Part shown: positions 2,969-42,146 of the stretch, in pieces
How positions within the stretch are numbered: the stretch's first letter is position 1
Layout of the letters: each line of letters opens with the position of its first letter
DNA from: a virus
Length of the DNA: 64,000 nucleotides
Strand: one strand, 5' to 3'
IMG/VR virus record: IMGVR_UViG_3300042566_001051
Span: 1-64,000 of that record
Notes under the pieces: model-generated
What the model was told of the DNA's origin: nothing
Databases searched by the model: none
Seen by the model: only the letters and a program-made list of their open reading frames with translations
Program-made: the position numbers and the translations under genes

Positions 2969-4228
2969 CTACTCCTTGATGATTTCGAACTCGAAAGCCG
3001 GGTTTCTGGGGCCGCCGAGCTTCCATTGACCGGAAAGAGTCAGCCGGGCAGGCTTCGGTGGCAACATGACGGCAGGCTTGTGATCGTGGATTCTGAACTC
3101 GCCAAAACGCGGATAAACGGTCATTTTCCGGCTACGGAGCCGGCGCCCGTCTAGGCTGAAATGCCCGATCTGATAGGCGCCGCCGACCGTCCATGTGCCA
3201 TCAAGGCGGCGAATGCGCTCAAAAAGCGTCGTTGGCGGGTCAGGAATGAAATACTCTGGCTCAGGATCGGCGGGGATCGTTTCGACTCGCCACACCAGCG
3301 TATCGCCGGTTATTTCAACGTCAGCAAGGCCACTCGCCCGGCAACTCTTCAGGCGCCAATCGACCTTTCCGCCCTCCAGCTTCCCGAGCTTGAACGTGCC
3401 GAAATGACTTGGGAGGCGCGCCGGCTCGCCGTCGATACCCAACTTCCATCGGCCATCGTTCGCCTCGGTGATAACCCGACCGCACCACGGGTAGCGAATC
3501 GGTATGGTCTTGTCCATCGCCAGCGCGTAGCCCATCGAAACGGATATGCCAAAGGCAATGCGCAGCCAGAACCGGAACACGGGAAGCAGGCGCGCCGGGA
3601 TGACCGAGCGGATGATGTGGATCAGGCTGGCAATCGAGCGAGTATTGACGCTGAAATCCAGCGAAATAAGGATTCGACTGGTCAGGAACATCCCGGCGGT
3701 ATTCACCTTGCGGTTGGCCCGGCTTTCATCGGCGCCGACAATGCGCCGTCCAAGCCCCCAGGAGCCGTCCAGCTTCACGCCATCCTCGCCGACTTGATGC
3801 AGCCACCACGCGAAGCTTGGTTTCGTGGTGTAGAGCGCCGTCGGGTACGGGCTTTCCTTGTCGTGCCAAAGCTGTTCCACCTCGCATTCGTTGGGGAACA
3901 GCATTTGCAGGTAGGTGCGCAGGAAATGCAGGCCACGCCCCTGAACGTCGCCAGACTTCCAGGCCCGGTACAGGTAACGCGTTGCCGCCTCTTCACGGTC
4001 GCCTTGCAGTAGCACCAGACCGTCGGTATTGACCGCCTTGCGCACCAGATCAAGGGAGCCAAGATGCGCAGCACCAAGGACGTTCGCGTCGAACGAGTCT
4101 CCCGCAAGGTTGGCCCCGAACAGATCGAGGAATAGCTTCTTCAGGTCGGCCTCAACCTCGTTTTCGGCAAAGCTGCCTTCGAGGGGGCTTAGTCGCGGAA
4201 GTTGGGCGTTTTGGAAGTCAAGAGACAT
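2969..4228 (-). CDS. Baseplate wedge protein (P1 gp16 position)
   Basis: RGLHFLRTYLQML motif, LDGSW repeats; lies between the baseplate-J-like gene and the fibre genes. Confidence 0.6.
   Translation of the reverse strand: MSLDFQNAQLPRLSPLEGSFAENEVEADLKKLFLDLFGANLAGDSFDANVLGAAHLGSLDLVRKAVNTDGLVLLQGDREEAATRYLYRAWKSGDVQGRGLHFLRTYLQMLFPNECEVEQLWHDKESPYPTALYTTKPSFAWWLHQVGEDGVKLDGSWGLGRRIVGADESRANRKVNTAGMFLTSRILISLDFSVNTRSIASLIHIIRSVIPARLLPVFRFWLRIAFGISVSMGYALAMDKTIPIRYPWCGRVITEANDGRWKLGIDGEPARLPSHFGTFKLGKLEGGKVDWRLKSCRASGLADVEITGDTLVWRVETIPADPEPEYFIPDPPTTLFERIRRLDGTWTVGGAYQIGHFSLDGRRLRSRKMTVYPRFGEFRIHDHKPAVMLPPKPARLTLSGQWKLGGPRNPAFEFEIIKE
3090..3130 (-). promoter_or_regulatory. Putative late promoter (CGGAAAA-N28-CAGAAT) for tail collar/fibre genes
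   Basis: Same motif and spacing as seven other sites; inside the 3' end of the upstream gene. Confidence 0.45.
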
Positions 4229-4237
4229 GGCGGCCCA

Positions 4238-5734
4238 CTACCCGCCCCAGGACGGCGTGACGATATTGACCGTCTCGACGGTAACTGAGAGGCTTTCGGT
4301 GGCGACGTAGCGCCACATTTCAGGCCGGGCCGCCAGCGCTTCAGGTTCCAGGATATTGACGGTCAGGTCAGACTCTCCGCCGGAGAGCGCCGCAACCTTT
4401 TCGCGCAGCAGCGCATAAACTCGCTGATAGAGCGGGCGATTGCGGCCGCGCCGTGATGCTGCCGCCGTCTCGCCAAACTCCGACAAGATGGCCTCGATGA
4501 TTTTCTGGCGCACGTCGGAAGCAACGTATGAGGTTGCCACCCTGGCGCTGATGGTCATGGCGATCTTCGAGCGCACCGGGGTAAAGAAGCGCACCTTATA
4601 GCTGTCGTCGGCGGCCAGGATGGCGGCCTTTATTTCGCGCTGGGTGTCGGTGAGCGATTCGTTGGCGATCACCGCCGGCGGAACCGGTACAGCCGGGTCT
4701 TCTTCGGTCAGGATGCTTTCTTCGCCAGTGCTCGATAGGCAGGCGACGAATAGGGTATTGATGTTATCGAAGCTGGGGCCTCGCGCCCGTTCTTCAGCCG
4801 ATTCATTCCAGACCGACAAGAAGCGCAGCGTCGGAAAGTTCCTGCGCACCAAGAAATCGAACTCGCCCAGGAATACCGCATTGCCGTCATAGACAGACGG
4901 GTAGCGCGCCAGGTCTCGCAGCACCGACATGGGCGGCGGATTCTGACCAGGCAGCAGCATGGCATCCATCTTCATTTCGATGGCCGCCTCCAGCGGAGAG
5001 ACAAGGTACTCGAACGAAAACGGGCTGCCAAACGCCGGGCTTATGTCGCCGGCGGTATAGAACACGGCCAAGGTAATGGCGGCGCCGTCTCGTGGTTGCA
5101 CGCCGACCACGCCATCAAAGCCGAAGCGGACATAGACGCGCTGGCGGTCATCGGCCTCGATGTGGAATACCCGGTCATCCGGGAAGGTGTTGACGTAGCG
5201 GTCGCGGTAGGAGAGCTCTCCATCGCCATCGCTCACGGAAACGCCGCACAGGTAGGAATCGTCTTCGGATGGCGGTATTTCAATGGCGTAGAACGGCTCG
5301 CTACCGCTGACGGTGTGGCGAACGACCAGCGAGCGCAGTTGCACCGCCTCGAATGTCGCCTCTCCATCTGCCGGCACGCTGGCCGGTGTCTCAATCCTGT
5401 AGGAAAGCCCGGATGAATCAAGGATCGTTCTCCCTGATTCGATAACAAAGACCTCTCCGCCCTTATTTGCAGCTCGAATCCGCACCCTTGCCGGAGTCGC
5501 CTTGCGAACGATTCCGCGCATTGCAGCATCGGCCAGAACGGTAGCGTCCCGCGTTTTCTCGAACGGCTCAGACATGGCCGTTTCAAGCTGGGCGGAGAAC
5601 ATCGCCAGCATGGTTGCCATTGCATCAAGATGCTGTAACACGCGCGGGTCTCCGGCCTGGTACAGCGGAGCAATGGCCGGGTAGGATGAAATCGAATCGC
5701 GGATTGCCCGCTGAAAATCTGCCTTGGTCAGCAT
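4238..5734 (-). CDS. Baseplate J-like wedge protein (P1 BplA-like)
   Basis: VYVRFGFDGVVG motif (gp6/J-like), size and synteny. Confidence 0.7.
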   Translation of the reverse strand: MLTKADFQRAIRDSISSYPAIAPLYQAGDPRVLQHLDAMATMLAMFSAQLETAMSEPFEKTRDATVLADAAMRGIVRKATPARVRIRAANKGGEVFVIESGRTILDSSGLSYRIETPASVPADGEATFEAVQLRSLVVRHTVSGSEPFYAIEIPPSEDDSYLCGVSVSDGDGELSYRDRYVNTFPDDRVFHIEADDRQRVYVRFGFDGVVGVQPRDGAAITLAVFYTAGDISPAFGSPFSFEYLVSPLEAAIEMKMDAMLLPGQNPPPMSVLRDLARYPSVYDGNAVFLGEFDFLVRRNFPTLRFLSVWNESAEERARGPSFDNINTLFVACLSSTGEESILTEEDPAVPVPPAVIANESLTDTQREIKAAILAADDSYKVRFFTPVRSKIAMTISARVATSYVASDVRQKIIEAILSEFGETAAASRRGRNRPLYQRVYALLREKVAALSGGESDLTVNILEPEALAARPEMWRYVATESLSVTVETVNIVTPSWGG

Positions 5735-5735
5735 G

Positions 5736-6026
5736 TCACGTCCTCGGAACCTCGATCACTTGGCCGGCAACCTCGATTACAAGATCGAGGCGATCAGGCG
5801 GCGTCTGAACGCCATAGAGATTGATCGATCCAGCAGGGAGCGCCTGAAGAACGGCCACATCGGAGCGCAGCTTTTGCAGGAACGCATCCGGCGCGCCGTC
5901 GGTCTGCGGCTGCTGCAATAGAGCCTTCACGTCCTGCCCGTAGTCAGAGCCCAAATAGCCATTCACTGGCGTTTTCAGCCAGTGTCCGACCATGCCCTGA
6001 ATTTCATTGCCCGTTATCGTCGCCAT
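5736..6026 (-). CDS. Small baseplate protein (gp25/W-like; P1 PmgA position)
   Basis: HWLKTPVNGYLGSDYG motif; directly upstream of the J-like gene. Confidence 0.6.
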   Translation of the reverse strand: MATITGNEIQGMVGHWLKTPVNGYLGSDYGQDVKALLQQPQTDGAPDAFLQKLRSDVAVLQALPAGSINLYGVQTPPDRLDLVIEVAGQVIEVPRT

Positions 6027-6032
6027 GCCCTA

Positions 6033-6074
6033 ATCCTATGGGGCTGGCAACGTCTGGCGACGCGGGTTTTTCCG
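6033..6074 (-). promoter_or_regulatory. Putative late promoter (CGGAAAA-N29-TAGGAT), likely leaderless
   Basis: Intergenic; -10 hexamer 6 nt before the ATG at 6026. Confidence 0.65.
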
Positions 6075-6077: not shown

Positions 6078-8591
6078 TCAGGCGTTACTCAGTCCGCCGG
6101 TGACGATATGAGCAATGCGGCGATCCTTCAGGTCTTGCCCGGCATCCTGCGACGGGGCTGCGACGGCGGCTGCCTTCTTCGTGTCGGCGGACGCCATTGG
6201 GACAGCAACCGTTGGCGCCTCGGCAATTGGCGGCGCTGTCGGAGCGACTGAAACCGGCGGTGCGCTTATGCTTGCGACAACAGGCGGCGCCGGCGAGGCA
6301 ATGGCGGATGATGGTGCCTGCTGTGATGCGACGGCCGTAGGCGCGGCGTCCTGACCGGCGAGCGCCAGAAGCCGATTTTTTTCTTCCACTGCGCGCTTGG
6401 CAGTTCCGGCCCTTACCCCTGCCGATGAGCTCGCAAACAGCTTGTCATTGTTCGCCACCTTGTAGTCCTGGATGGCGGAAACAATATCCGCATCGGACAT
6501 GCTGGCGGTGTCCTTGCCCTTCAGTGACTTCTCGATTAGGGATGAATTCCCTCCGAACTGAACTGACGTGCTCCATACGGCGTCCTGAACCGCCGCGCCG
6601 CGCCCGGAAAGGTCAATTCCGCCTTTCTTCAGCCGGTCGATTTGCGGGTCGTAGTGGCTGGCTTTAATGAAGTCGTGCTGGGCATTGCCGAATTCAGGAT
6701 CGGCCTTGGCGACTTCCTTCCATTTGGCGTTGAACTCAGGCGAGCCAGGCTGTAGTCCAGTGAACTGATCGCCGTATTTGCTCGACTTCAGAAATTTTTG
6801 CAGCGTTCCTTGCGTCGATGAAAGCTGATAGGTGCCATAGGATGCGCCTCCGAAGTCACCTTTCCCGCTTGACACGGTTCCGGCACCGCCTTTGCCCGAC
6901 TCGAACAACTTGCTTGTCTGGCCCAATACCCAGTTTCCGGCGGTCTTTGCGCCTTCCCACGCTTTTGCAACGCCCTTGCCGACGGTCGTGTTGTCAGCGG
7001 CCCACTCAGCGCCTTTCTTGACGCTATCGACTGCCTGCCCGCCGACCTCTACGGCCTTTGTTTTTGCTGATACAGCCGTGTCTGCGGCCCATGTTGCCGC
7101 CCTCTGTGCTCCGGCTTTTGCATCAAACCCGGTTTTGTCCTTGACGAATGAATTGGCGGCATTCGCTTTGTCTGCGGCCCAATCGACGGCTTGGCTTCCG
7201 GCATCCTTGATTCCCTTCCAGGCGTCCGACAGCTTTTCGAGCGCACCATCCCATCCCTTCTTCAGGAAGTCGGTTGTCGCTTCCCAGGCGCCAACGATCT
7301 TGCCGGGTATGTCCGCCTCACGCAGATCAGAAACCCAGCCCCCTACGGTGTCGCCGATTATCTGCCCAGCCTGGTCGCCAAAGAACATGCCGACAGCCCC
7401 GCCCAGGGCGCCGCCGATAGCAACCCCGATAGGGCCGCCGATTGCACCGGCCATTGCCCCCAGCTTGGCGCCAGCGAGCATGCCGCCGACACTACCGGCG
7501 AACCCGCCAACCGCCTTTCCTGCTTTTTCATCCTTCTGACGCCGGGTCAGCGAGTCGTCCGTTTCGCTGCTGTAAATGTCGGAGGCTGCTCCGACGCCGC
7601 CGATCAGCGCGCCAAGCAGCGGGATGCGGCGAAGCATGCCCTTGCCAGCACCAAGCAATCCTTTGCCAGCGCCCATCAAGCCCTTGCTGGCTCCACCAAG
7701 CATCCCAGCGCCGCCGGCCAGCATCGGCCCGATAACCGGGATTTTCGACAATAGGCCGGACATCATGCCAAGCAGGCCGCCGCCGTCTCCGCTGCCCTTT
7801 GCTTCCGGTTTTTCCTCAAGCAGCTTCAAGCTCTTGTTTGCCGCCTTCGAATAGGCCGTCTCTTCCTTCCTGAAGACGCTCAGGGTCGAGAAGATGCGCC
7901 GGAGAAAGCCGGTCTGCTTCTTGTCCTCACTGCCGCCGGTCAGCATTTCATAGCCGCGCGCCATCGGCTGGGCTACCTCATTGAACGCCTTGACGGCCGG
8001 GTCTGCCTCTTCCATGCCGCCGCTTGAATCGGCAACAGCGCCGACGATACGGTCAGCAATCGAGCGCAATGCGCCAGTATCGGCATCGTCCGCCGCATCA
8101 TTTGGCAGCAGCCCATCCGGGCGGCCATCGCCCTTGGTGAATCTGCCTCGCCCATCCCGTCCGGCAGGCTTTGCTACCGACTGTGGCGACTTCCGTTCCG
8201 GTCGCACCATGACGCCAGAGGCGCCAGACTTTGCCGATGTCGATGCGGCTTCATTTCCTTGCCCGCGAACCGGCGTGACAGCCTTCCGCAGCAGGGATGG
8301 AATCTCATCGCTGTAGCGGCGGGCTGGAATTGCTGACGCCGCGCGCTCTCGGCCCCTTGGTGTTGCCTTGACGGCCGGGTCTGCCTCTTCCATGCCGCCG
8401 CGAGGGGTAATAACCCTTGATGCGTCAGCGTGCTTCCCGCCACCTTTGACGGCCGCCTCGCTGGCGCCCATAACAGCCTTGCGGATTGCCCGAACATCGC
8501 TCCTGATGTCATCCCAGACCGCAAGCGCGCGGCCAATATCAATCGGGTCTCCGACAAGGAAGCCCTGCGCATCGTGCTTAAGTGCCGCCAT
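6078..8591 (-). CDS. Tape measure/injection protein (P1 Sit-like) with C-terminal peptidoglycan hydrolase domain (VgrG3-C-like)
   Basis: Gly/Ala-rich hydrophobic segment, W-spaced helical repeats, FESGKGGAGTVSSGKGDFGGASYGTYQL motif. Confidence 0.8.
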   Translation of the reverse strand: MAALKHDAQGFLVGDPIDIGRALAVWDDIRSDVRAIRKAVMGASEAAVKGGGKHADASRVITPRGGMEEADPAVKATPRGRERAASAIPARRYSDEIPSLLRKAVTPVRGQGNEAASTSAKSGASGVMVRPERKSPQSVAKPAGRDGRGRFTKGDGRPDGLLPNDAADDADTGALRSIADRIVGAVADSSGGMEEADPAVKAFNEVAQPMARGYEMLTGGSEDKKQTGFLRRIFSTLSVFRKEETAYSKAANKSLKLLEEKPEAKGSGDGGGLLGMMSGLLSKIPVIGPMLAGGAGMLGGASKGLMGAGKGLLGAGKGMLRRIPLLGALIGGVGAASDIYSSETDDSLTRRQKDEKAGKAVGGFAGSVGGMLAGAKLGAMAGAIGGPIGVAIGGALGGAVGMFFGDQAGQIIGDTVGGWVSDLREADIPGKIVGAWEATTDFLKKGWDGALEKLSDAWKGIKDAGSQAVDWAADKANAANSFVKDKTGFDAKAGAQRAATWAADTAVSAKTKAVEVGGQAVDSVKKGAEWAADNTTVGKGVAKAWEGAKTAGNWVLGQTSKLFESGKGGAGTVSSGKGDFGGASYGTYQLSSTQGTLQKFLKSSKYGDQFTGLQPGSPEFNAKWKEVAKADPEFGNAQHDFIKASHYDPQIDRLKKGGIDLSGRGAAVQDAVWSTSVQFGGNSSLIEKSLKGKDTASMSDADIVSAIQDYKVANNDKLFASSSAGVRAGTAKRAVEEKNRLLALAGQDAAPTAVASQQAPSSAIASPAPPVVASISAPPVSVAPTAPPIAEAPTVAVPMASADTKKAAAVAAPSQDAGQDLKDRRIAHIVTGGLSNA
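7987..8401. repeat. Exact 37-bp direct repeat (7987-8023, 8365-8401) encoding GGMEEADPAVKA twice
   Basis: gccttgacggccgggtctgcctcttccatgccgccgc occurs twice, 378 bp apart, in frame. Confidence 0.95.
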
Positions 8592-12302: not shown

Positions 12303-12344
12303 AGGGTAGCGCGGCGGGATTGCCCGATTCCCGCCCGTTTTCCG
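12303..12344 (-). promoter_or_regulatory. Putative late promoter (CGGAAAA-N29-TACCCT) for portal
   Basis: Intergenic copy of the shared motif. Confidence 0.6.
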
Positions 12345-26018: not shown

Positions 26019-26060
26019 ATGGTATGCCGCGCGCAACAGCCCGATTGGCGAGGTTTTCCG
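26019..26060 (-). promoter_or_regulatory. Putative late promoter (CGGAAAA-N29-TACCAT) for darA-darB-ulx
   Basis: Intergenic copy; ATG at 26011 is 7 nt downstream of the -10. Confidence 0.65.
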
Positions 26061-27012: not shown

Positions 27013-27572
27013 GTTTCCCCCTTCTTGGTCAGGTCGTCGCTACCTATCTTCCTGAAAATCTTCCCGCCTCCCCAGGCCGCAATCGCCTTAACTGCTTCCA
27101 TCCACGGATAAGTGATTGCGGCAAGGAATGGCCTTGGGTGCGGCAGGTTGTAGTCGATACGGGCTGCGTCAATCCAGATATTGTCTGGCGTCATAATTAC
27201 CGTACTTGACGCGCCACCCGTTCCGCAAACCAGCCTCAATTCCTGATCGGCGATCAGCTCAATATTCTTATGGTGCCAGCGCCTCCAATCGGTCGAATTT
27301 CCGGTTCTTGGGTTTCTTGCGCCAGTGATGACTGGGTAGCGCGGATCGCCGCCGACAAAGGCAACCCAAACGGCATCATCCGGGTTGATCTCTATTTCAG
27401 TTTCCCAAAATCCAGCGCGCGACTTGTCGCCTATTGGGTACTCGATTTCAGCTTCAGGTAGAACGTCCGCGCCGTCAGTCAATCCTGGGATTTCGATTCT
27501 GCAAGTTCTCCGTTCCTGGTCGTAGGATTTGACGATGGCCGGATAGCGCCCCGGCATGAGTCCGTATTCCAT
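27009..27572 (-). CDS. Baseplate central spike (gp5/gpV OB-fold)
   Basis: VWVAFVGGDPRYPVITG motif; upstream of PAAR. Confidence 0.85.
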   Translation of the reverse strand: MEYGLMPGRYPAIVKSYDQERRTCRIEIPGLTDGADVLPEAEIEYPIGDKSRAGFWETEIEINPDDAVWVAFVGGDPRYPVITGARNPRTGNSTDWRRWHHKNIELIADQELRLVCGTGGASSTVIMTPDNIWIDAARIDYNLPHPRPFLAAITYPWMEAVKAIAAWGGGKIFRKIGSDDLTKKGET

Positions 27573-29359: not shown

Positions 29360-29703
29360 GGCATGTCCTTTCGGTGAATAGGTTGCTTCCCTGCACTGTA
29401 TTGCACGGCATTTGGCTCAATCGGCGTGTTTTCCGGGCCTTCCTGGCAGGACTTGACGGCCGCCTCAAGCTCGGTTTCGTATCCCTGGCGCTGGCTTCGC
29501 TCGGCGCGCAAGGCTTTCATCTGCTCCCATATTCCTGAGCCGACAGGGAGCGAATCAACGGCAAGCGCAGGGCGATCAGGAATCGCCACCTTGCACGGAA
29601 CTGGTACGGGCACAAGAACCTCTTGAACCTTTGGGGCCGTGGATACGCACCCAGACAGTGCCACGGCCATCACGATGGCTATTGCAAACATGCGCATAGT
29701 CAC
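29356..29703 (-). CDS. o-spanin (Rz1-like lipoprotein)
   Basis: Lipobox LSGC, Pro-rich VPVPVPC. Confidence 0.8.
   Translation of the reverse strand: MTMRMFAIAIVMAVALSGCVSTAPKVQEVLVPVPVPCKVAIPDRPALAVDSLPVGSGIWEQMKALRAERSQRQGYETELEAAVKSCQEGPENTPIEPNAVQYSAGKQPIHRKDMP
29395..29435 (-). promoter_or_regulatory. Putative late promoter (CGGAAAA-N28-TACAGT) for the tube operon
   Basis: Shared motif 36 nt upstream of the tube ATG. Confidence 0.6.
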
Positions 29704-31699: not shown

Positions 31700-31741
31700 A
31701 ATATAGGGCGAGACTAGACGCCAGATTCGTGAGGTTTTCCG
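31700..31741 (-). promoter_or_regulatory. Putative late promoter (CGGAAAA-N29-TATATT) upstream of the lysis cassette
   Basis: Shared motif and spacing. Confidence 0.55.
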
Positions 31742-33290: not shown

Positions 33291-33293
33291 GGC

Positions 33294-33326: not shown

Positions 33327-33351
33327 CCCCCGGTTAAGGTTGCAAGGGTGG

Positions 33352-34026
33352 TCAGATGCCCATCTTCCGGCGCATACGCATGGACTTCATGCGGCGCATC
33401 ATCGCGCCCGCAGAATGGCTCTTCATGCGCGCCTTGCGGATGGCGAGTTTCTGTTTTGCGGAGAGGCGCACCGTTCCGGAAATGCGCTTGCGGATGCGCA
33501 TCTTCTTGCCGCCGCGAACCGCCATCTTCATCTTGTAGACGGCATCCAAGGCGGGCTCCTGGTCGGACTCGCTGAAAACGAAGCTGTCGATTTCGGCGCT
33601 GGCCTCGTCATCGCCTTCCGGCAGCACAGAGGCAACCAGATCACGCACGCGGTCAGCGGCTTCATCGTCCCAGTCGTTCAACAGTGCGCCGGCGTCCTCT
33701 TCGGTTGCGCCGCACTTGACCAGATAGTCCCAGGCCGCATTGAGTGCAACTTCCAGCACGCCCTGTTCGTCCTCGGTGATGTCGCCGTCCTTGTTGGCAT
33801 CGGCAATACCCACCACGAGGGCCATCAGGCGGTCTGCGTAGCTCTCGCCATCGTCCAGATCGTCGGTTTCCGCCCATTGCTGGACGGCGGATACCGCAGA
33901 CATGGAAATGTCGGCGATGGTGTAGTTGTCGGCCCCTGCGAGCGCCGGCTCTTCGCCGGTGGAATCCAGGGTCTTGGTAGCATCGCGGCGCTTCATCGCC
34001 CCGCGCAGCAGTTCGGTCATGCTCAT
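33352..34026 (-). CDS. Prohead core/scaffold-like protein (P1 gp21 position; T4 gp68-like basic tail)
   Basis: Acidic body plus C-terminal AVRGGKK...KQKLAIRKARMKS...RMKSMRMRRKMGI. Confidence 0.6.
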   Translation of the reverse strand: MSMTELLRGAMKRRDATKTLDSTGEEPALAGADNYTIADISMSAVSAVQQWAETDDLDDGESYADRLMALVVGIADANKDGDITEDEQGVLEVALNAAWDYLVKCGATEEDAGALLNDWDDEAADRVRDLVASVLPEGDDEASAEIDSFVFSESDQEPALDAVYKMKMAVRGGKKMRIRKRISGTVRLSAKQKLAIRKARMKSHSAGAMMRRMKSMRMRRKMGI

Positions 34027-34053
34027 GTTTCTGTCCTTTCCTTGTGGGAGGGG

Positions 34054-35697: not shown

Positions 35698-35709
35698 GGC
35701 CTAGCCCCC

Positions 35710-36075
35710 TTACTGAGCTTGCGTTTCAGTGGTAGCAGCGCCGCCGGTCTTGCCCTTGGTGGGCGCGACAACCGCAACCTCTTCGATGGTCAGTGCCAGT
35801 TCGTAGCCATTCAGTTCGGCGATCTGCTCGATGCTGGATGCCAGGCGCTGGAACTGGTCTTCGCTTTCGATGGAGACCTCTTTTTGACGGCCAGCCTCGT
35901 CGGCGCAGTGGCGAAGGTGCAGCCCCTCCACCTCGGGGAACACGGCATTGCGCGGCATGTGGTTCGTCACCACAACCTTGAACGGGTACTTGACCTTGGC
36001 GAACTCCTTTGCCACCAGATCATTGGCGTCCTTCCCGGTGAGGGAAGGAGCGCCCAAATCGACTTTACGGGTCAT
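35710..36075 (-). CDS. Hypothetical virion-associated protein
   Basis: AAGGAG RBS; between capsid and sheath genes. Confidence 0.6.
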   Translation of the reverse strand: MTRKVDLGAPSLTGKDANDLVAKEFAKVKYPFKVVVTNHMPRNAVFPEVEGLHLRHCADEAGRQKEVSIESEDQFQRLASSIEQIAELNGYELALTIEEVAVVAPTKGKTGGAATTETQAQ

Positions 36076-36100
36076 GTTGGTTGCTCCTTATCCAGCCCGA

Positions 36101-37771
36101 TTACTTCAGGTTGGTGATGTTGATGAGTGCGCAGCCCAGCGAAGACGGGCCGTGCGGATTGACTGCCGTGAAGTTGCGGGCGTAGAAACCAGCGCCCTGC
36201 TTCAGGTCAGCCCCAACAGACAGCGGGATCACGGTCGGCGGAACGGCGTCGCCCAAAATGAACGGGTTGCGCGTCACGTCGGTAGCGCGGCCAACGCACA
36301 GAATTTGCGATGCGGTTTCGCTCTCGGTGATGCCCTTCGGGGTGTAATAGACCTCGAACCGGCCAAACAGGCGGCCGATGCGGAAGATGCCGGGACGCTC
36401 GGCGACGCCGGACGGCTCGAAAATCTCGCGCGGCAGCGACATGAACTGAGCGGCGACGTTCTTGCCGACGTACAGATGGGTGATACCGTGATTCATGGTA
36501 TCCAGCGCCATCTGCTGCGATGCGGCAGCCAGGACATGGCCGAAATCAAGCCAGAGCATCGCGCGGTTCATCTGCGGCGAACGTGCGGCCCACTCGAAGT
36601 CGTAATCAACTTGGTTGTTGGCGGCCAGGCGGCGAGCCTTAGCCAGAACCTCGTAGTGACGCTCATTGGCGAACTGCGCCTGAATGGCAATCACGCTCTC
36701 GCTGTACGGGTCGAGGCCCAATTCATTCGCCATCTGAGTACGGCTGTCGATGGTCTGGTGAGTGGTTACGCGCCAGGGCTTGGCGTGCAGCTTGTAGGTA
36801 TTGACCGCCGTGATGATCGAGGGGGTCAGTTCCGGGGCGCGCTCGTAGTCGATGAAGCCTTCAACGACGACCGGGATAGTGACGGGCATAGCCGGCGCAG
36901 TGGTCAGGGCATAGACGCCGGTATCGGTGTTGATGGTGCCGCCGATAACGTAGTTGGTGCCGGCGATGGTGATATTGCCGGACACGGGCGAGTTGCCGGA
37001 ACCGGTCGAATCAACTTCCTTGGCTGCCAGAACGCCATTCACATAAACCAGGGAGCGGCCACGCAACAGCTTGACGGCAGCAGCGCCGGCGTCGCAGGTT
37101 TCGTCGGTCGTCTGGATCGTGGTCAGCTTGCCGGTGACGGCGCCAGTATCGACAACCGGCATCGACTTGTTGATGCGGGACGAGGACACATAGGTATTGC
37201 CCGACAAGGAGCCGTCCATCAGCCCGCCCTCGGCATAGCGGCCGTAGGTATTGCCGGCGTTGTGGCTCATGATGGCAAGAACTGCCTCATTGGAACCGAT
37301 GTCGGCAGGCAGGTAGTGGGCGAACGGGATGGCATCGCCCATTGCGGAGAGAATTGCCACAATGGCGCGGTTCGGCTGCAATGCCAGGGCGTCGTGATGC
37401 GCGGAGCTTGCGGAGTCCAGGCTGAACTTGCGGCGCGCGGAGTCCGTGGTGGCAAAGGCCAGGTGCAGGGCTTGCTCGATCACGTCGGCAGGGGCTGCAA
37501 TGCCGTGCTGGGATTCGTAGGCGGAAACGCCATCGAGAATCGCGCGGGTGACGAGTGCTGCATCATCGCCCTTGGCTTCATCCAGAACGACTTGCAGGGT
37601 CTCGGGAACCTTGACGCCGGAATTCTGGTTGCTCGCGGTCGCAATGAAGTCTGCGGCAGCGGCGGAATCGAAGGTGCCAGCCTTGACGGCATTGTCCTTC
37701 AGGTTATCAACGAACTGGGCTACCTCGGCGGTTTCGCGCTTGAAGTAATCCTGGTGGATGCGCTTGGTCAT
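36101..37771 (-). CDS. Major capsid protein (P1 gp23-like)
   Basis: About 556 aa; strongly biased codons, strong RBS, own promoter; capsid-sheath-core order as in P1. Confidence 0.8.
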   Translation of the reverse strand: MTKRIHQDYFKRETAEVAQFVDNLKDNAVKAGTFDSAAAADFIATASNQNSGVKVPETLQVVLDEAKGDDAALVTRAILDGVSAYESQHGIAAPADVIEQALHLAFATTDSARRKFSLDSASSAHHDALALQPNRAIVAILSAMGDAIPFAHYLPADIGSNEAVLAIMSHNAGNTYGRYAEGGLMDGSLSGNTYVSSSRINKSMPVVDTGAVTGKLTTIQTTDETCDAGAAAVKLLRGRSLVYVNGVLAAKEVDSTGSGNSPVSGNITIAGTNYVIGGTINTDTGVYALTTAPAMPVTIPVVVEGFIDYERAPELTPSIITAVNTYKLHAKPWRVTTHQTIDSRTQMANELGLDPYSESVIAIQAQFANERHYEVLAKARRLAANNQVDYDFEWAARSPQMNRAMLWLDFGHVLAAASQQMALDTMNHGITHLYVGKNVAAQFMSLPREIFEPSGVAERPGIFRIGRLFGRFEVYYTPKGITESETASQILCVGRATDVTRNPFILGDAVPPTVIPLSVGADLKQGAGFYARNFTAVNPHGPSSLGCALINITNLK

Positions 37772-37834
37772 AATCGTGAGTCCTTTCGGAAAGTTCAAAC
37801 ACAAGAAACGCCGGCTGGTAGCCGACTTGTGTGT

Positions 37835-37875
37835 ATTCTGAAAGGCTGAAAACTGACCAAACGGGGCTTTTTCCG
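37835..37875 (-). promoter_or_regulatory. Putative late promoter (CGGAAAA-N28-CAGAAT) for the capsid operon
   Basis: Intergenic copy of the shared motif. Confidence 0.65.
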
Positions 37876-37896
37876 GGTTTGCTGCCCCGCCTCCGA

Positions 37897-38382
37897 CTAC
37901 GGCAAATCAAGGTCTCCGCGCCGGTTGCACACATACCGCGTCACGAATGGCGGGATATTGACGGTGGTCTCGGTGCCAACAACCTCATACGCCAGCCTCA
38001 CGTCATCCGACAGAACGAGGTAGATCACGTCTCGGTTGCGGATGTCGAAGAACCCAGGCATGCCGGACGGCTCTTCTGGCTCCACGAGAAAGCGGAATTC
38101 GGCGCCACTGCCGTTATTCGCATCCTGGCGATCCATCATCGGCGACGCCATGAACGCCTCTGCCTGCAATGCGTACCCGTTCCCAAGGTGGTCGTACTCG
38201 ACAGACTCTTCATCCTCGGAGTCCAGAACGCCAAGCCCGCCCATCGTTGGCAAGCCGCCGACGGGCTCGCCTCCGGTGCGCGTGACGCGCTTCCCGAATA
38301 CCTGGCACTCCCATGTATTCGGGTGGTTGATTACGACGTTGCGCGCCATGCGATTCACGGCGCTTGGTACATTAGTGAGCAT
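37897..38382 (-). CDS. Head-tail/neck protein candidate
   Basis: Morphogenesis operon; beta-rich head-closure-like pattern. Confidence 0.45.
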   Translation of the reverse strand: MLTNVPSAVNRMARNVVINHPNTWECQVFGKRVTRTGGEPVGGLPTMGGLGVLDSEDEESVEYDHLGNGYALQAEAFMASPMMDRQDANNGSGAEFRFLVEPEEPSGMPGFFDIRNRDVIYLVLSDDVRLAYEVVGTETTVNIPPFVTRYVCNRRGDLDLP

Positions 38383-38384
38383 GC

Positions 38385-39485
38385 CTATCCTTTCAGTGCT
38401 GCCATGATGTCTTCTGGCGCTTTGCCAAGACGGCGAAGCTGGGCGATCAGGTCTTCCGCCGTAATTTCCCCCTTGTCGATCTGGGCCTCAAGCCGCCTGG
38501 TCGCTGCCGGCTTCTTGGCTTTCGAGCGGGGCGCGGCTTTCACGGCCGCCTTTGCCACCCGGCGCTCTTTTGCCTTTGCGGCTTCGGCCTTGCGCTGGTC
38601 GCTGGTCTTGATCTTTGTCACACTCTTGGCGTCCGCCGCCTCTTCGGCTTCATTCTGTGCGGCCTGAATGCGTGCAGTGTTGTCGGCTGACGCCTGCAAC
38701 TTCTCCATGTACTTCTCAAGGAAGCGCAGCACGGCGTTCGACGACTCTATTTCCGTCATCACGCGCAGCACATGCTTACAAGCAACGCCCTTCAGCCCAG
38801 GATTGCGAATCTTCGGGAAGCCCCATTCCTGCCGGCCAGCAGCAAAACCACCGATGGTGGCGACGTAACGCAGGAAATAGCGATGCCGGCCGCAGTCGCA
38901 ATCGAATGACAGCTTCTGCTTCCTGAGCCAGTTGGCTACCTGCTTTGGTGACTTCCGGTCTTTTGCCTCGGTGGCGGCCAGCTTGTGACCGGCTTCATCG
39001 AAGGCGTTGAACATCACAACGACGTGGTGCCGTGTAACGTCAGAATCCTTTCCGGCGTTGGTGATGAATCGAACCATGCCGTTGTGAGCGGAAACTGGGA
39101 TGCCGGACGTAATTTCCTTGCGCGCCTTGTCAATGTCGCTCGACGCTTCGTTTGGGTTCGCCGACACATAGGACAGCGGCTGAGACGAAGCCATGTCGAT
39201 CACCTGGCGGGCTGTGATGCCTTTCCCGCCCTTGAATCTCGACTGCGCCATGCGCATGTTATGGCGGAACGTAGCCAGGTCGTCTGAAGTGATTCGACGC
39301 GAGCCTCCGCCTATGGTCGTCATGAGTACGCGATTTGCGTCCCATTCGCCCTGAACCTCCTGCTTGGTCAGGATTATCGACTTCGGCGACTTCTCAGCCT
39401 CTTCCCGCTGCTTCTTGTCGGCAGAAAAGCGGTCTTTCGCCTCGCCGACGTGGCCCTTTACCTTGCCAAGCCATGAATCGGCCAT
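38385..39485 (-). CDS. SWIM-like zinc-finger protein
   Basis: CDCGRHRY...RNPGLKGVACKH. Confidence 0.65.
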   Translation of the reverse strand: MADSWLGKVKGHVGEAKDRFSADKKQREEAEKSPKSIILTKQEVQGEWDANRVLMTTIGGGSRRITSDDLATFRHNMRMAQSRFKGGKGITARQVIDMASSQPLSYVSANPNEASSDIDKARKEITSGIPVSAHNGMVRFITNAGKDSDVTRHHVVVMFNAFDEAGHKLAATEAKDRKSPKQVANWLRKQKLSFDCDCGRHRYFLRYVATIGGFAAGRQEWGFPKIRNPGLKGVACKHVLRVMTEIESSNAVLRFLEKYMEKLQASADNTARIQAAQNEAEEAADAKSVTKIKTSDQRKAEAAKAKERRVAKAAVKAAPRSKAKKPAATRRLEAQIDKGEITAEDLIAQLRRLGKAPEDIMAALKG

Positions 39486-39488
39486 GCG

Positions 39489-39827
39489 TTACCCCTCAGC
39501 CCAGGTGGGCGCGTAGTCTTCTCGGTATCCTGGGATGGACTCAAAGCCAGTGCGGCGCTTGATGGCGTAAAGCTGCCCTTCATTCGGCAGAACAATGCGT
39601 TTCTGTGGCAGCGGCTGATCTACGGTATCAAGCCCAGCGGCGGCCATGACGGCAAGGAACTCGTCACGCCGGCCATATACGCGCTGCGATACCAGCGTCA
39701 GGTCGAAAGCCTCGTCTGGCTTTGTCTCATAGAAAATTGCCGTGGCGTCCCAGGGCTTGGTGCTCTCGGCGAATTTGCGCACCTCTCGGTAGAAGGACTT
39801 GGCCGCTCGGGTGTCTTTTTCGATCAT
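39489..39827 (-). CDS. Baseplate LysM/gp53-like protein
   Basis: DEAFDLTLVSQRVYG...VMAAAGL...IVLP. Confidence 0.65.
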   Translation of the reverse strand: MIEKDTRAAKSFYREVRKFAESTKPWDATAIFYETKPDEAFDLTLVSQRVYGRRDEFLAVMAAAGLDTVDQPLPQKRIVLPNEGQLYAIKRRTGFESIPGYREDYAPTWAEG

Positions 39828-39964
39828 TCCTGGTCACTTCCCACGATATACCTTGTGCCAGGTGTCCCAGAATTCAGCGGCGACATCAAGCGGAAGAACG
39901 ATCGCTTTCGTGATCGCCTTGATCCACGCGCCGGCGTACCAATGAGCAAGCATGTCAGTCCCTT

Positions 39965-40453
39965 TCAGATTGTGATGACGCCGCCACGGGTCAGGAAGCG
40001 GAACGATTCAGCCATCTTCACGGTGCGCTCAACCGTATCGGAGCGGGTCGCGTGCAGGCACGTCGCCAATGCGGCAATCTGCCCGCAGGTAACGCCCTCT
40101 GCAATGCGGTATTTCGGCCCGCCGGCGTCGATGCCGTCTTTCTCGATAGCCTGATCCGGGTTGGCTCGCGCGGCGCGGTCAGCGAAAGCGATGCGCGAAC
40201 TCTTGCCGTCGGCGGCGATGCCGGCCTTCAGGGAATAGAACGCCGATATGGCGCGCATCAGATCGGCATCGGTAAAGAGCTCGTCGCGCGGTATGTCCTG
40301 GTCGTTGGTCAGCACGATACAGCCAGCCCGGCGCTCGGTTCGATAATCCGCCTCAGCCCCGACAACCAGGACGCGGGCATCAGGGTCGTAGGCTGAAAAA
40401 AGGCTGCACGGGCGGCCGCCGTAGCCGGTGAAAGTAGCCTGAATCTGGATCAC
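39965..40453 (-). CDS. Hypothetical morphogenesis protein
   Basis: Coupled to the upstream gene in the late operon. Confidence 0.55.
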   Translation of the reverse strand: MIQIQATFTGYGGRPCSLFSAYDPDARVLVVGAEADYRTERRAGCIVLTNDQDIPRDELFTDADLMRAISAFYSLKAGIAADGKSSRIAFADRAARANPDQAIEKDGIDAGGPKYRIAEGVTCGQIAALATCLHATRSDTVERTVKMAESFRFLTRGGVITI

Positions 40454-41229
40454 AGGTCGCGCTCCCCATTGACGACGTATGGCCTGACGACGACGGAGCC
40501 GCCGTTATCACCGCTCTCCATGCTCTCGGCGTTGATTTCCTGCACAAGCGGATAGCCTGCCGGGTCTGCCGTGCCTGGCGTGCCCTTGCCGTCGTTCGGC
40601 TGCCCCTCGGCAGGCGCGTCGAACAGCGGGATTTCGGCCTTCAGGGTGATGTCAATGGCGAGGATGGTGAGATTCTTCGCCTCGGTCTGGATTGACATGG
40701 CCGGAGCGTCCGGCGACTCGACCTGTACCGGCCAATCCATCGGCTCGCCGGCGAAGTTGTATCGCGCCGTGAATCGTCGATTCGGCACGGCATCAAGGAA
40801 CAGCAGGAACTGAGCGGCAATGGAGCGGGCGGACGGCTCGTCATGGGCGAATATGCAAATCTGCGCCCGGATGTCACCGGCGACGGCGCGAACACCGAAA
40901 ACGCGCTCCTTGTCATCGCCGGGAATCATGACCATGACAGATTCAGCTACCTGGCGGGTGAAGTCTCGCCCTGTCGGCGTGTAATCCTTGGCCATTGCAA
41001 CGATGATGACTGGCATGTTCGCCGGCTTGGTTGCGGCGCTGTCCGTGTCGTTACGCTGCCAGCTTGAAAGCATGTCCTCGGCCGCGTCGATCATCCTGGA
41101 CGGCGCCCAAACAACACTCTTTGCCAGGCCGCGCGTGACGTACCCCTCCAATGCTTTGGTGGTTGGCACGATGGAGGCGTAAAAGCCCCCCATGTATTCG
41201 CCGAACGCGGCTTTGACTGGCTGGAGCAT
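40450..41229 (-). CDS. Tail terminator/completion protein candidate (P1 gp24-like)
   Basis: Size, NMPVIIVA motif, late operon. Confidence 0.45.
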   Translation of the reverse strand: MLQPVKAAFGEYMGGFYASIVPTTKALEGYVTRGLAKSVVWAPSRMIDAAEDMLSSWQRNDTDSAATKPANMPVIIVAMAKDYTPTGRDFTRQVAESVMVMIPGDDKERVFGVRAVAGDIRAQICIFAHDEPSARSIAAQFLLFLDAVPNRRFTARYNFAGEPMDWPVQVESPDAPAMSIQTEAKNLTILAIDITLKAEIPLFDAPAEGQPNDGKGTPGTADPAGYPLVQEINAESMESGDNGGSVVVRPYVVNGERDL

Positions 41230-41235
41230 TGGTAG

Positions 41236-42072
41236 TTACCGGGTGAATTTGCCCAACAGGCGGTCGTATAGCGGCGAGGAAGGCGCGGCATCTTCTGCCG
41301 GAGCGACGAAGGTGGGCAGATCGGCAGCCCGGAACAGCTTGGCGTCTCGGCTGATCCGGTCGGCGGAGCTGATCGAAACCGCTACCGGCAGAATTGATGC
41401 AGCATCAAGGACGGCAGATGGCTCAATGCCCTTCTTGGCGAGCATCGAGAGAAGCTGCTCGTTTTCCGATTGCAGGCGCTCAATCACGGCGCTCGTCGCG
41501 GAGCGCTCCGCATTGATGTTGTCCAGAATGGCGATCACGGCCTGAGCCTGCTCATCTTGCTCCGCCGCGTAAATGTCGTCGTAAGTCAGCGCGCCAACAT
41601 TCCCGCCCATCGCATCATCCAGTGCGATTCCACGGAATGAATTGTTCAGGTAGTTGGGCTGGGCAACATAGTCAAACCCGTAGAACTCCGGGCGAGACTG
41701 ATCTATCGCCGATGAAAACCCGCCCACCTTCTCTTCCCATAATTTGGCAGCAAGGCGGCCCGCTGCCGTATCGAGGAACTGGGCGCGGTGCTCAACGTTT
41801 CCGTCGTAGTCCGCCTTCAGGTAGGTGGTAACAATGGCCGGCTCGACCGGAGCATACTTACCGCCCTCGATACCGCCTTCGACTGGGGCCATGCCATAGC
41901 GGACGCGCGGAAGGTGCCCATAGAAGCCCAGCATCCCGCGCGACGCGACCATTTCCTGACACGCTGGGCCGTTGATGGCGTCACAAATGGCCTTAATGTT
42001 GAAATTACGATGCTGGCCGGTATGTTGCCGGCCGCGATCCTTGAGGTTGTAGCGGATAACCGGGGTTTCCAT
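41236..42072 (-). CDS. Prohead protease (P1 Pro / T4 gp21-like)
   Basis: LGFYGH, GGFSSA and GFDYVAQPNY catalytic motifs; AAGGAG RBS. Confidence 0.85.
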   Translation of the reverse strand: METPVIRYNLKDRGRQHTGQHRNFNIKAICDAINGPACQEMVASRGMLGFYGHLPRVRYGMAPVEGGIEGGKYAPVEPAIVTTYLKADYDGNVEHRAQFLDTAAGRLAAKLWEEKVGGFSSAIDQSRPEFYGFDYVAQPNYLNNSFRGIALDDAMGGNVGALTYDDIYAAEQDEQAQAVIAILDNINAERSATSAVIERLQSENEQLLSMLAKKGIEPSAVLDAASILPVAVSISSADRISRDAKLFRAADLPTFVAPAEDAAPSSPLYDRLLGKFTR

Positions 42073-42104
42073 CGTGCGAACTCCTTGTGAATAGGTGCTC
42101 GCAC

Positions 42105-42146
42105 AATCTTCGCACTCCACTACATGCCAATCATTGCCATTTTCCG
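42105..42146 (-). promoter_or_regulatory. Putative late promoter (CGGAAAA-N29-AAGATT) for the protease operon
   Basis: Shared motif overlapping the HNH 3' end; -10 is weak. Confidence 0.45.

What the first reader, a model, noticed from the sequence alone, without database searches (positions are those of the whole stretch)
3090..42146. Eight copies of an apparent late-promoter motif: CGGAAAA-N28/29-(-10)
Seen: on the - strand CGGAAAA is followed exactly 28-29 nt later by an xAxxxT hexamer at 3090-3130, 6033-6074, 12303-12344, 26019-26060, 29395-29435, 31700-31741, 37835-37875 and 42105-42146. These lie just upstream of the fibre, baseplate, portal, darA, tube, lysis, capsid and protease genes. 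None has a good -35, and two put the start site at the ATG (leaderless). Inference: this is an activator-dependent late regulon with a binding site near -45, unlike P1's Lpa -22 box or lambda Q antitermination. No Lpa or Q gene was recognised; the XRE protein at 45931-46548, in the Q-like position, is the best activator candidate.
Basis: partly seen in the sequence, partly recalled or inferred. Interest (0 to 1): 0.8.

Follow-up and report, generated by a model that had tools for sequence, protein, structure and literature searches.

The report
Conserved late-promoter box in P1-like prophages
Eight late operons of this P1-like temperate phage begin with the same promoter (CGGAAAA, then a -10 box exactly 28-29 bases later, no -35 box); the design is conserved in over a hundred related phage loci and probably depends on a phage-encoded XRE-type activator that stands where P1 has Lpa.

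Summary

- **In the window.** CGGAAAA-N28/29-NANNNT occurs at exactly the eight stated places, all on the - strand (9 pattern matches against 0.86 expected; 0 of 100 shuffles reach 9).
- **In relatives.** The same box, spacing and -10 stand before the orthologous operons: protease block, capsid, lysis, tube, darA, portal, baseplate and fibre. This holds in 61 loci found through the capsid gene, 46 found through the regulator gene, and four further full genomes including Xanthomonas phage Rb1. Their G+C ranges from 44 to 66% and their module order differs.
- **Promoter features.** The -10 reads (T/C)AnAAT. There is no -35. In all five full genomes the ATG of one gene lies 6-7 nt after the -10, and darA does the same in four of five. 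These conserved leaderless starts fix the start site and put the box at about -48 to -41.
- **Known late regulators.** No Lpa, Q, Mor/C, Ogr or sigma gene was found.
- **Candidate activator.** The only DNA-binding gene shared by all five genomes is the 205-aa XRE-HTH protein at 45931-46548. It lies between the resolvase and the terminase (lambda's Q position, P1's lpa position) and is predicted to form a dimer.

Best reading: activator-dependent sigma-70 late promoters. The activator's identity is inferred, not shown. An overlapping window of this genome carries the same note (e1-6081264). New variant of a known kind; interest moderate.

The parts
42105..42146 (-). Late promoter 1: CGGAAAA-N29-AAGATT. 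It lies inside the 3' end of the HNH gene and is followed by ATG 42072 of the P1 Pro-like protease gene and five tail/baseplate genes (down to 37897).
   Evidence: (score 21.1); orthologous sites before the Pro homologue in G003, G004 and Rb1 (none matched before it in G005) and in most loci
37835..37875 (-). Late promoter 2: CGGAAAA-N28-CAGAAT, upstream of the capsid gene (ATG 37771), then sheath and PmgG/PmgB-like genes. It is the best-scoring site.
   Evidence: score 31.4; present about 70-100 nt before the capsid gene in most of 61 loci
31700..31741 (-). Late promoter 3: CGGAAAA-N29-TATATT, inside the last codons of the PmgB-like gene; drives the lysis cassette (small ORFs, holin, endolysin, spanin).
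   Evidence: score 25.1; same place in G004, G005 and Rb1 (in G003 the site lies before the PmgB homologue instead)
29395..29435 (-). Late promoter 4: CGGAAAA-N28-TACAGT, upstream of the tube gene (ATG 29359), followed by tail genes, PAAR and Hdf.
   Evidence: (score 24.5)
26019..26060 (-). Late promoter 5: CGGAAAA-N29-TACCAT. ATG 26011 of DarA follows 7 nt after the -10 (leaderless). Operon darA-darB-ulx.
   Evidence: ATG 6-7 nt after the -10 in 4 of 5 genomes; score 28.1
12303..12344 (-). Late promoter 6: CGGAAAA-N29-TACCCT, upstream of the portal gene (ATG 12273). It is the weakest by score and holds a GC hairpin in the spacer.
   Evidence: score 18.0; portal promoters at the same place in G004 and G005
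6033..6074 (-). Late promoter 7: CGGAAAA-N29-TAGGAT. ATG 6026 of a 96-aa gene follows 6 nt after the -10 (leaderless), then the baseplate genes.
   Evidence: ATG 6-7 nt after the -10 in all 5 genomes; score 20.6
3090..3130 (-). Late promoter 8: CGGAAAA-N28-CAGAAT, inside the 3' end of gene 2969-4228, 118 nt before GTG 2965 of the tail-collar/fibre genes.
   Evidence: score 26.1; orthologous site before the fibre gene in Rb1
45931..46548 (-). Candidate late activator: a 205-aa protein with an N-terminal XRE-type HTH (about residues 17-85) and a long C-terminal helical hairpin. It lies between the resolvase-like gene (46548-47054) and the small terminase (45312-45908).
27262..27303 (-). Possible ninth, weak site: CGGAAAT-N29-GAATAT inside ORF 27009-27875. 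Not shown to be conserved.
   Evidence: score 16.8, below the largest shuffle

Best explanation
The eight elements are the late promoters of a temperate phage that has a P1-type virion and lambdoid early control. Each has a sigma-70-type -10 hexamer, (T/C)AnAAT, and no -35 hexamer. Each has an invariant box CGGAAAA(C) whose first base lies 35-36 nt upstream of the hexamer, at about -48 to -41. I infer that host sigma-70 RNA polymerase cannot use these promoters alone. A phage-encoded activator made from the early operon would bind the box on the face next to the missing -35 and recruit or stabilise polymerase, as a class II-type activator does. That would switch on eight separate morphogenesis, lysis and anti-restriction operons together. 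Two of them (the 96-aa baseplate-operon gene and darA) would be transcribed as leaderless mRNAs that start at the A of the ATG. The most likely activator is the 205-aa XRE-HTH protein at 45931-46548, acting as a dimer held by its C-terminal helical hairpin. Shown by computation: the motif, its enrichment, its fixed spacing, its conservation at orthologous operon starts, the absence of a -35, the conserved ATG position, and the absence of known late regulators. Inferred: that transcription starts there, that it needs an activator, and that the XRE protein is the activator. My odds: late promoters with an upstream factor site about 0.85; XRE protein as the factor about 0.55. The confidence given for this explanation is for the whole statement, activator included.
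For: **Motif in the window.**
- 9 matches against 0.86 expected, 0 of 100 shuffles.
- All sites are on the coding strand of the late genes. Their flanks are unrelated, so they are not repeat copies.

**Spacing.**
- In 141 non-redundant same-strand CGGAAAA contexts from 61 related loci, an NANNNT hexamer lies at spacer 28 in 41 and at 29 in 59. Most other spacers have about 5 (range 2-21).
- With at least 4 of 6 matches to TATAAT the counts are 33 and 43, against mostly 0-2 elsewhere (at most 8).

**Further conserved positions.**
- A-rich at -5 to -2, C at +7 and +12, and W-T at +15/16.
- C-A enrichment 6-8 nt after the hexamer, as at start sites.

**Conserved regulon.**
- In G003 (44% G+C), G004, G005 and Xanthomonas phage Rb1 (66% G+C) the box precedes the orthologous operons, although the module order differs.
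- Forward/reverse counts are 13/0, 12/3 and 11/1 in G004, G005 and Rb1, and 2/11 in the window's genome. Controls give 0-2. P1 itself shows noise only.
- A swapped packaging block in L001 brings its own box-N29-TACCAT promoter.

**Start site.**
- The ATG of the 96-aa gene lies 6-7 nt after the hexamer in 5 of 5 genomes. That of darA does so in 4 of 5.

**No -35.**
- Best match 1.94 of 6 against 2.30 in shuffled spacers.
- No canonical promoters at operon starts.

**No known late regulator.**
- Mor, sigma region 2, Q (PF06530) and Ogr are absent.
- Lpa is absent by tblastn (best E 1.8) and by hhalign (probability 0.6%).

**XRE protein.**
- It is the only DNA-binding ORF shared by five genomes.
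- It is present in all 5 extra genomes tested.
- It is adjacent to TerS in 28 capsid-anchored loci and in most of the 46 regulator-anchored loci, all of which have P1-like virion genes and the box.
- Its recognition-helix region GYxNxSKLSKxE is nearly invariant, as is the box.
- CI, Cro and CII are separate genes.
- The fold is an XRE HTH like C.AhdI, SinR, ImmR and P22 c2, plus a helical hairpin.
- Homodimer model: score 0.64, best of 3 controls 0.01. The mark was reached by 20 of 30 proteins solved as pairs of one chain and by 1 of 23 solved as single chains. The runs agree in at least 81% of contacts and the partner's pLDDT is at least 77. My own alignment was used, so these counts hold only roughly.
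- P1 has lpa directly upstream of pacA. In P1, late genes need Lpa, an RNA polymerase-binding factor (PMC8198154).
Against: - No transcription start, binding or activation was measured.
- XRE-type dimers normally bind two-fold symmetric operators, but the box is asymmetric. The inverted half-site GTTTTCCG scores only about 3 of 8 at offsets +13 and +22 (z about 4).
- Co-occurrence cannot separate the XRE gene from any other core gene, because every XRE-bearing locus found also has the P1-like virion module. No natural case uncouples them.
- The terminase genes just downstream of the XRE gene have no box, unlike P1's LPpac.
- The A-tract of the box lies where the proximal UP-element subsite lies (from my own knowledge of that element), so part of the signal could be read by the host alpha subunit.
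- Small ORFs under 50 aa were not compared.
- The genome record is 85% complete by CheckV, as given in the answers.
Confidence: 0.55

Rival explanations
1. The elements are activator-dependent late promoters, but the factor that reads CGGAAAA is not the XRE protein. It could be another phage product (a small or unrecognised core protein) or a conserved host protein. The XRE protein would then have another role, for example control of the packaging genes or of early transcription.
For: The box is asymmetric, whereas the XRE protein is predicted to be a symmetric dimer. Several core proteins of unknown function exist (5736-6026, 35710-36075, 37897-38382, 39965-40453). Co-occurrence does not discriminate between core genes.
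Against: None of the other core proteins shows a DNA-binding domain, and they lie inside the late operons that they would have to switch on. The hosts span Xanthomonadales, Burkholderiales, Nitrosomonadales, Methylococcales and Thiomicrospira, which makes one host factor with an identical 7-bp specificity unlikely. The XRE gene lies in the early operon, ahead of all the boxes.
Confidence: 0.2
2. There is no dedicated activator. GGAAAA is a proximal UP-element-like A-tract read by the alpha C-terminal domain of host RNA polymerase, and it boosts otherwise weak -10-only promoters. Late timing would come from something else, such as genome copy number or loss of repression.
For: The A-tract lies at about -46 to -41, where the proximal UP subsite lies (established knowledge, not tested here). 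There is an A-rich stretch just upstream of the box.
Against: The invariant C-G-G and the C at +7 are not UP-element features. The box is the same in genomes of 44 to 66% G+C. Nearly every same-strand copy sits before a late operon and none sits before an early gene. A UP element without a -35 is not expected to make a strong promoter.
Confidence: 0.07
3. The elements are promoters for an alternative sigma factor or a non-host polymerase, with CGGAAAA acting as a -35-like element.
For: GGAAC-like -35 elements are typical of ECF sigma factors (established knowledge). There is weak T-rich signal 15-19 nt downstream of the box.
Against: No sigma region 2 gene is in the 75-kb record. The well-conserved downstream element is a sigma-70-like (T/C)AnAAT 28-29 nt away, far beyond the 16-18 nt that a sigma factor spans. 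Information content at the position where an ECF -10 would lie is below 0.3 bits.
Confidence: 0.03
4. The elements are not promoters. They would be a conserved DNA or RNA signal of another kind at module borders, such as a recombination or packaging site or an RNA processing signal.
For: The sites lie at module borders, and a swapped module carries its own copy.
Against: The fixed 28/29-nt distance to a -10-like hexamer, the variable distance to the start codon (0-118 nt), the strict orientation with the genes, and ATG codons 6-7 nt after the hexamer in five genomes all fit a promoter. Neither a recombination site nor an RNA signal would predict them.
Confidence: 0.05

Closest known systems
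Bacteriophage P1 late promoters with the activator Lpa (gp10)
   Same: The virion, Dar, Pro and lysis modules are homologous to P1's. There are many dispersed late promoters with a TANNNT-type -10 and no -35. The regulator gene lies directly upstream of the packaging genes (lpa-pacA in P1). Late genes depend on a phage factor (PMC8198154).
   Different: P1's cis element is a 9-bp box at -22 (ATGTGACTT and AAGTTACTT in the record). Here it is CGGAAAA at about -45. The XRE protein has no detectable similarity to Lpa. There is no box before the terminase genes here.
Phage Mu middle and late promoters with Mor and C
   Same: Works alike: a small phage HTH activator dimer binds just upstream of, and overlapping, the absent -35 (centre about -43.5, from established knowledge) of promoters that have only a -10.
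   Different: No Mor/C family gene is present (PF08765). Mor and C sites are dyad-symmetric, whereas this box is asymmetric. The fold is an XRE HTH plus a helical hairpin.
Class II activation by Cro/cI-type HTH dimers (lambda cI at PRM; controller C proteins of restriction-modification systems such as C.AhdI)
   Same: The HTH domain of the candidate is structurally closest to C.AhdI, C.BclI, SinR, ImmR and P22 c2. It is predicted to form a dimer. The site abuts the -35 position, as OR2 and the distal C-box do (established knowledge).
   Different: Those proteins bind symmetric operators and act on one or two promoters of their own locus. Here a single strong half-site is repeated at eight or more operons as a genome-wide late regulon. 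The C-terminal helical hairpin has no match among solved structures.
P2 Ogr / P4 Delta and lambda Q late control
   Same: These are phage-encoded late switches, and the candidate gene occupies the lambda Q position after the nin-like/resolvase genes.
   Different: No Ogr/Delta zinc-finger gene or Q gene is present. There is no TGT-N12-ACA element at -55. There are eight separate promoters rather than one promoter with antitermination.

Membership tests
P1 Lpa-dependent late promoter | -10 hexamer of the TANNNT type without a -35 | tested here: met
P1 Lpa-dependent late promoter | conserved 9-bp inverted-repeat box centred at -22 | tested here: not met
   P1 boxes were read from the record. At the equivalent positions here the information content is below 0.3 bits.
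P1 Lpa-dependent late promoter | an Lpa homologue is encoded | tested here: not met
   BLASTP E 0.17; tblastn on five genomes, best E 1.8; hhalign probability 0.6%
P1 Lpa-dependent late promoter | dependence on host SspA | not testable with these tools
   Needs genetics.
Lambda Q-type antitermination | a Q protein is encoded | tested here: not met
   PF06530 is absent from the 75-kb record. Other Q families were not searched.
Lambda Q-type antitermination | a single late promoter, with late genes read through terminators | tested here: not met
   There are eight dispersed promoter elements, each conserved at its own operon start.
Mu Mor/C-dependent promoters | a Mor/C family activator is encoded | tested here: not met
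   PF08765 absent
Mu Mor/C-dependent promoters | activator site just upstream of an absent -35, with a -10 present | tested here: met
   The box lies at about -48 to -41, anchored by leaderless ATGs; there is no -35.
P2 Ogr/Delta-dependent promoters | an Ogr/Delta zinc-finger protein is encoded | tested here: not met
   PF04606 absent
Alternative sigma (ECF-type) promoter | a phage sigma gene, and -35/-10 elements 16-18 nt apart | tested here: not met
   No sigma region 2. The spacing is 28-29 nt.
Cro/cI (XRE) HTH activators acting at about -42 | XRE-type five-helix HTH domain | tested here: met
   HTH_31 at 29.7 bits, over the cut-off of 27; model pLDDT 84; Foldseek hits to C.AhdI, SinR, ImmR and P22 c2 with TM 0.8-0.87 over the domain
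Cro/cI (XRE) HTH activators acting at about -42 | homodimer | tested here: inconclusive
   Prediction only: score 0.64, best of 3 controls 0.01. The mark was reached by 20 of 30 proteins solved as pairs of one chain and by 1 of 23 solved as single chains. Contact agreement at least 81%; partner pLDDT at least 77.
Cro/cI (XRE) HTH activators acting at about -42 | two-fold symmetric operator | tested here: inconclusive
   Only weak T-rich resemblance to the inverted half-site at +13 and +22 (about 3 of 8 matches, z about 4).
Cro/cI (XRE) HTH activators acting at about -42 | binds the site and contacts RNA polymerase | not testable with these tools
   Needs EMSA or footprinting and in vitro transcription.

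The most novel reading that the evidence does not exclude
A previously uncharacterised family of XRE-HTH proteins with a long helical-hairpin dimerisation domain is the late-gene activator of a large clade of P1-like temperate phages of Beta- and Gammaproteobacteria. The family has at least 216 clusters at 50% identity with E <= 1e-30. It would have displaced the Lpa/-22-box system while the P1-type modular late regulon was kept. It would act through one strong asymmetric half-site at about -45 on -35-less sigma-70 promoters, including conserved leaderless late mRNAs.
Probability: 0.5. Interest if true: 0.65.

Novelty: new variant of a known kind. Interest (0 to 1): 0.55.

Why it matters
- **A rule for annotation.** It gives a simple sequence rule, (C/A/T)GGAAAA-N28/29-(T/C)AnAAT, that marks the late operons and their start sites in a widespread group of prophages. 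The group includes prophages of Achromobacter, Pandoraea, Comamonas, Nitrosomonas, Methylobacter and Xanthomonas, and so far the regulator is annotated only as 'helix-turn-helix protein'.
- **Regulator replacement.** Homologous virion modules and the same many-promoter layout appear to be run in P1 by Lpa and a -22 box, and here by a different factor and a -45 box. This would be a clear case of non-orthologous replacement of a phage late switch.
- **Leaderless late mRNAs.** It predicts conserved leaderless late mRNAs in Gram-negative phages.
- **A testable activator.** It names a candidate activator family that can be tested at once in a cultured system (phage Rb1 on Xanthomonas campestris 8004).
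- **A possible tool.** A tight, portable activator-and-promoter pair of this kind could serve for gene expression in Burkholderiales and relatives.

Tried and rejected
- **RNA evidence.** Wastewater RNA libraries hold this phage or close strains, but only as assembled contigs. Contigs bridge the promoters (for example 37251-37982 and 37506-37968) and may derive from DNA. They say nothing about start sites.
- **Internal promoter for the terminase.** GGGAAAA-N29-GAAAAT lies inside the XRE gene at 46185-46226. It is the codons W-E-K ... R-K-L and is not kept at the DNA level where the residues or codons differ. Rejected as a conserved promoter.
- **Autoregulation.** Some relatives have a box upstream of the XRE or resolvase genes (L126-L128, L132). 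In Rb1, L090 and L095 the apparent copies overlap coding starts or have a poor hexamer, and the window has none. Left open.
- **Co-variation test.** I looked for family members with a different recognition helix. They were not found alone with enough flanking DNA. In L125 and L126 they are tandem paralogues beside the usual type. No test was possible.
- **Uncoupling test.** All 46 loci reached through the regulator family carry P1-like virion genes. Five capsid-bearing records without an XRE match are fragments or a draft genome. Uninformative.
- **Literature.** No paper in the library holds CGGAAAA in a phage-promoter context, and none mentions phage Rb1. My guessed PMC id for the P1 genome paper was not held.
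- **Sigma-54 idea.** TGGCA-N5-TGGCA in the 42146 spacer has its GG and GC off by one, and the pattern is absent from the other sites (by eye). Rejected.

Full report
**What the window is.** The window is 64 kb of a 75-kb IMG/VR virus record.
- PHROG, Pfam and tblastn hits show a P1-type virion and accessory set on the - strand:
  - Pro-like protease (41236-42072) and gp23-like capsid (36101-37771);
  - sheath (34054-35697) and PmgG/PmgB-like genes;
  - holin and endolysin;
  - tube (28859-29359);
  - Hdf, DarA, DarB and Ulx (14427-26553);
  - portal (10711-12273), baseplate and fibres.
- Upstream of these lies a lambdoid control and replication region:
  - a CI-like repressor (HTH plus S24 peptidase, 51097-51990, + strand) and a Cro-like gene (50781-51014);
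  - a CII-like gene (50183-50644), an initiator and a DnaC-like loader, NinB, and a Ref-like nuclease;
  - a resolvase-like gene (46548-47054);
  - then the XRE-HTH gene (45931-46548), directly followed by the small and large terminase genes.

**The observation.** CGGAAAA occurs 16 times, which is no more than chance. Ten of the 11 copies between 3 kb and 42 kb are on the - strand. Eight of those ten are followed 28 or 29 nt later by an NANNNT hexamer. That makes 9 pattern matches against 0.86 expected, and 0 of 100 shuffles reach 9. The flanks of the eight sites are unrelated, so they are independent occurrences and not copies of a repeat. Each precedes the first gene of a block, at 0 to 118 nt from the predicted start. 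Three sites lie within the last codons of the preceding gene.

**Conservation.** This is the decisive evidence.
- The capsid protein finds 61 related loci with 52-100% identity. They include prophages of Comamonas, Burkholderia, Pseudothauera, Pigmentiphaga, Pusillimonas, Nitrosomonas, Uliginosibacterium, Methylococcaceae and Thiomicrospira.
- Almost every same-strand CGGAAAA in them carries the hexamer at 28/29 nt, and they stand at the same places as in the window.
- After removing near-identical copies there are 93 full sites among 141 same-strand contexts. The hexamer count by spacer is 41 at 28 and 59 at 29, against about 5 at most other spacers (range 2-21). With a stricter -10 the counts are 33 and 43, against mostly 0-2 (at most 8).
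- Outside the preselected letters the sites share an A-rich stretch just upstream, C at +7 and +12, W-T at +15/16, A-A in the hexamer, and C-A 6-8 nt after it.
- More distant relatives use AGGAAAA or TGGAAAA at the same distance, so the core is GGAAAA.
- A matrix trained only on relatives ranks the window's eight sites first.

**The regulon in five full genomes.** I compared the window's genome with G003, G004, G005 and Xanthomonas phage Rb1. Their G+C is 44-66% and their module order differs. The box precedes the homologues of the protease block, capsid, lysis cassette, tube, darA, portal, the 96-aa/baseplate operon and the fibre genes. Not every genome shows every site; for example no site matched before the protease homologue in G005. 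A block swap in L001 replaces TerS, TerL and Pro (37-58% identity, amid 97-100% flanks) and brings a different promoter with the same box and spacing.

**Where transcription should start.**
- For the 96-aa gene, the ATG lies 6 nt after the hexamer in four genomes and 7 nt after it in one.
- For darA, the ATG lies 6-7 nt after the hexamer in four of five genomes.
- There is no room for a ribosome-binding site, so these must be leaderless mRNAs beginning at the ATG.
- This is independent support that the hexamer is a working -10, and it places the box at -48/-47 to -42/-41.
- The sites have no -35. The late region has no excess of canonical sigma-70 promoters, and none at operon starts.

**What reads the box.**
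- The record has no Mor/C, sigma, Q (PF06530) or Ogr/Delta gene and no Lpa.
- P1's late promoters, as annotated in the P1 record, use a 9-bp box at -22 that is unrelated in sequence.
- Among all ORFs of at least 50 aa shared by the five genomes, the only one with a DNA-binding domain is the XRE-HTH protein.
- It is present in all five additional genomes tested.
- It lies directly upstream of TerS in 28 capsid-anchored loci and in most of the 46 loci fetched through the family itself. All of those also carry the P1-like genes and the box.
- The family is large: 410 close homologues, and 216 clusters at E <= 1e-30. It is named only 'helix-turn-helix protein'.
- The HTH, and above all the recognition-helix region, is nearly invariant, in parallel with the invariant box.
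- The model (pLDDT 84) is a five-helix XRE domain followed by a long helical hairpin. Only the HTH part matches solved structures: C.AhdI, C.BclI, SinR, ImmR and P22 c2.
- The homodimer model supports binding but does not show it:
  - score 0.64, best of 3 controls 0.01;
  - the mark was reached by 20 of 30 proteins solved as pairs of one chain and by 1 of 23 solved as single chains;
  - the runs agree in at least 81% of contacts and the partner's pLDDT is at least 77;
  - my own alignment was used, so these counts hold only roughly.
- The gene occupies lambda's Q position (after the resolvase) and P1's lpa position (before the packaging genes).

**Weak points.**
- Nothing was measured.
- A symmetric dimer is expected to read a symmetric site, but the promoter-proximal half is only faintly similar to the inverted box.
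- The capsid and fibre promoters of the window and several relatives do carry GTTT(T)-type tracts at +13 and +22. This hints at one strong and one weak half-site.
- I found no phage that has the regulator without the P1-like module, or the reverse, with enough sequence to decide. Co-occurrence therefore cannot single out this gene.

**Comparison with what is known.** The system works like other -35-less, activator-dependent phage late promoters. By site position it resembles Mu Mor/C. By protein fold and site position it resembles lambda cI at PRM and the controller proteins of restriction-modification systems. By genome layout it resembles P1's Lpa regulon. It fails the membership tests of the Lpa, Q, Mor/C, Ogr and alternative-sigma systems. 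I file it as a new variant of a known kind.

**Verdict.**
- Observation: confirmed.
- Interpretation: supported as far as computation can go.
- Late-promoter reading: about 0.85.
- XRE protein as activator: about 0.55.
- Interest: moderate (0.55).

The same motif was noted by the scan in an overlapping window of this genome (e1-6081264).

Noticed in passing
window 42120-45908 compared with L001:3308-6575: The contig behind L001, L020 and L022 is 97-100% identical to the window in the XRE, NinB and Ref genes and from g40450 to the capsid gene. It is only 37-58% identical in TerS, TerL and Pro, and it lacks the HNH/RHH cassette (42120-43800). This is a recent swap of the whole packaging block, and the block brings its own box-N29-TACCAT promoter.
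   Followed up: partly
window 27262-27303 (-): CGGAAAT-N29-GAATAT, with the usual GATTGG-like middle part, lies inside ORF 27009-27875. It may be a weak ninth promoter ahead of the PAAR and Hdf genes. Its score of 16.8 is below the largest shuffle.
   Followed up: partly
L125:3-972 and L126:1907-2978: Methylomicrobium and Methylobacter prophages carry two tandem paralogues of the XRE-hairpin family. The first has a different recognition helix (for example LGISDSYLARIE), which suggests a two-step cascade or a second specificity.
   Followed up: partly
window 46185-46226 (-): GGGAAAA-N29-GAAAAT inside the XRE gene recurs at the same codons (W-E-K ... R-K-L) in G005 and several other loci. It is explained by coding constraint, though an internal promoter for the terminase genes is not excluded.
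   Followed up: yes
window 12310-12337 (-): The spacer of the portal promoter holds a GC-rich hairpin (GCGGGA, a 9-nt loop, TCCCGC) directly after the stop of the antitoxin-like gene 12353-12658. It could end the upstream immunity/TA transcript or modulate this promoter, which is the weakest of the eight.
   Followed up: no
window 37843-37860 and 3098-3117 (-): The capsid and fibre promoters have GTTT(T)-type tracts about 13 and 22 nt after the start of the box, and many capsid promoters of relatives have GTTTTCA or GTTTTTGA at +22. This may be a second, inverted half-site in the strongest promoters.
   Followed up: partly
window 25501-45500: Four wastewater RNA-seq libraries from one study hold contigs 95-100% identical to most of the late region, so this phage or close strains are common in wastewater. 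Whether the material is RNA or carried-over virion DNA cannot be told.
   Followed up: partly
window 6078-8591 (-): The 837-aa gene before promoter 7 carries a C-terminal domain of the T6SS VgrG3-like type (PF21277, E 9e-75) on a tape-measure/lysin-like protein.
   Followed up: no
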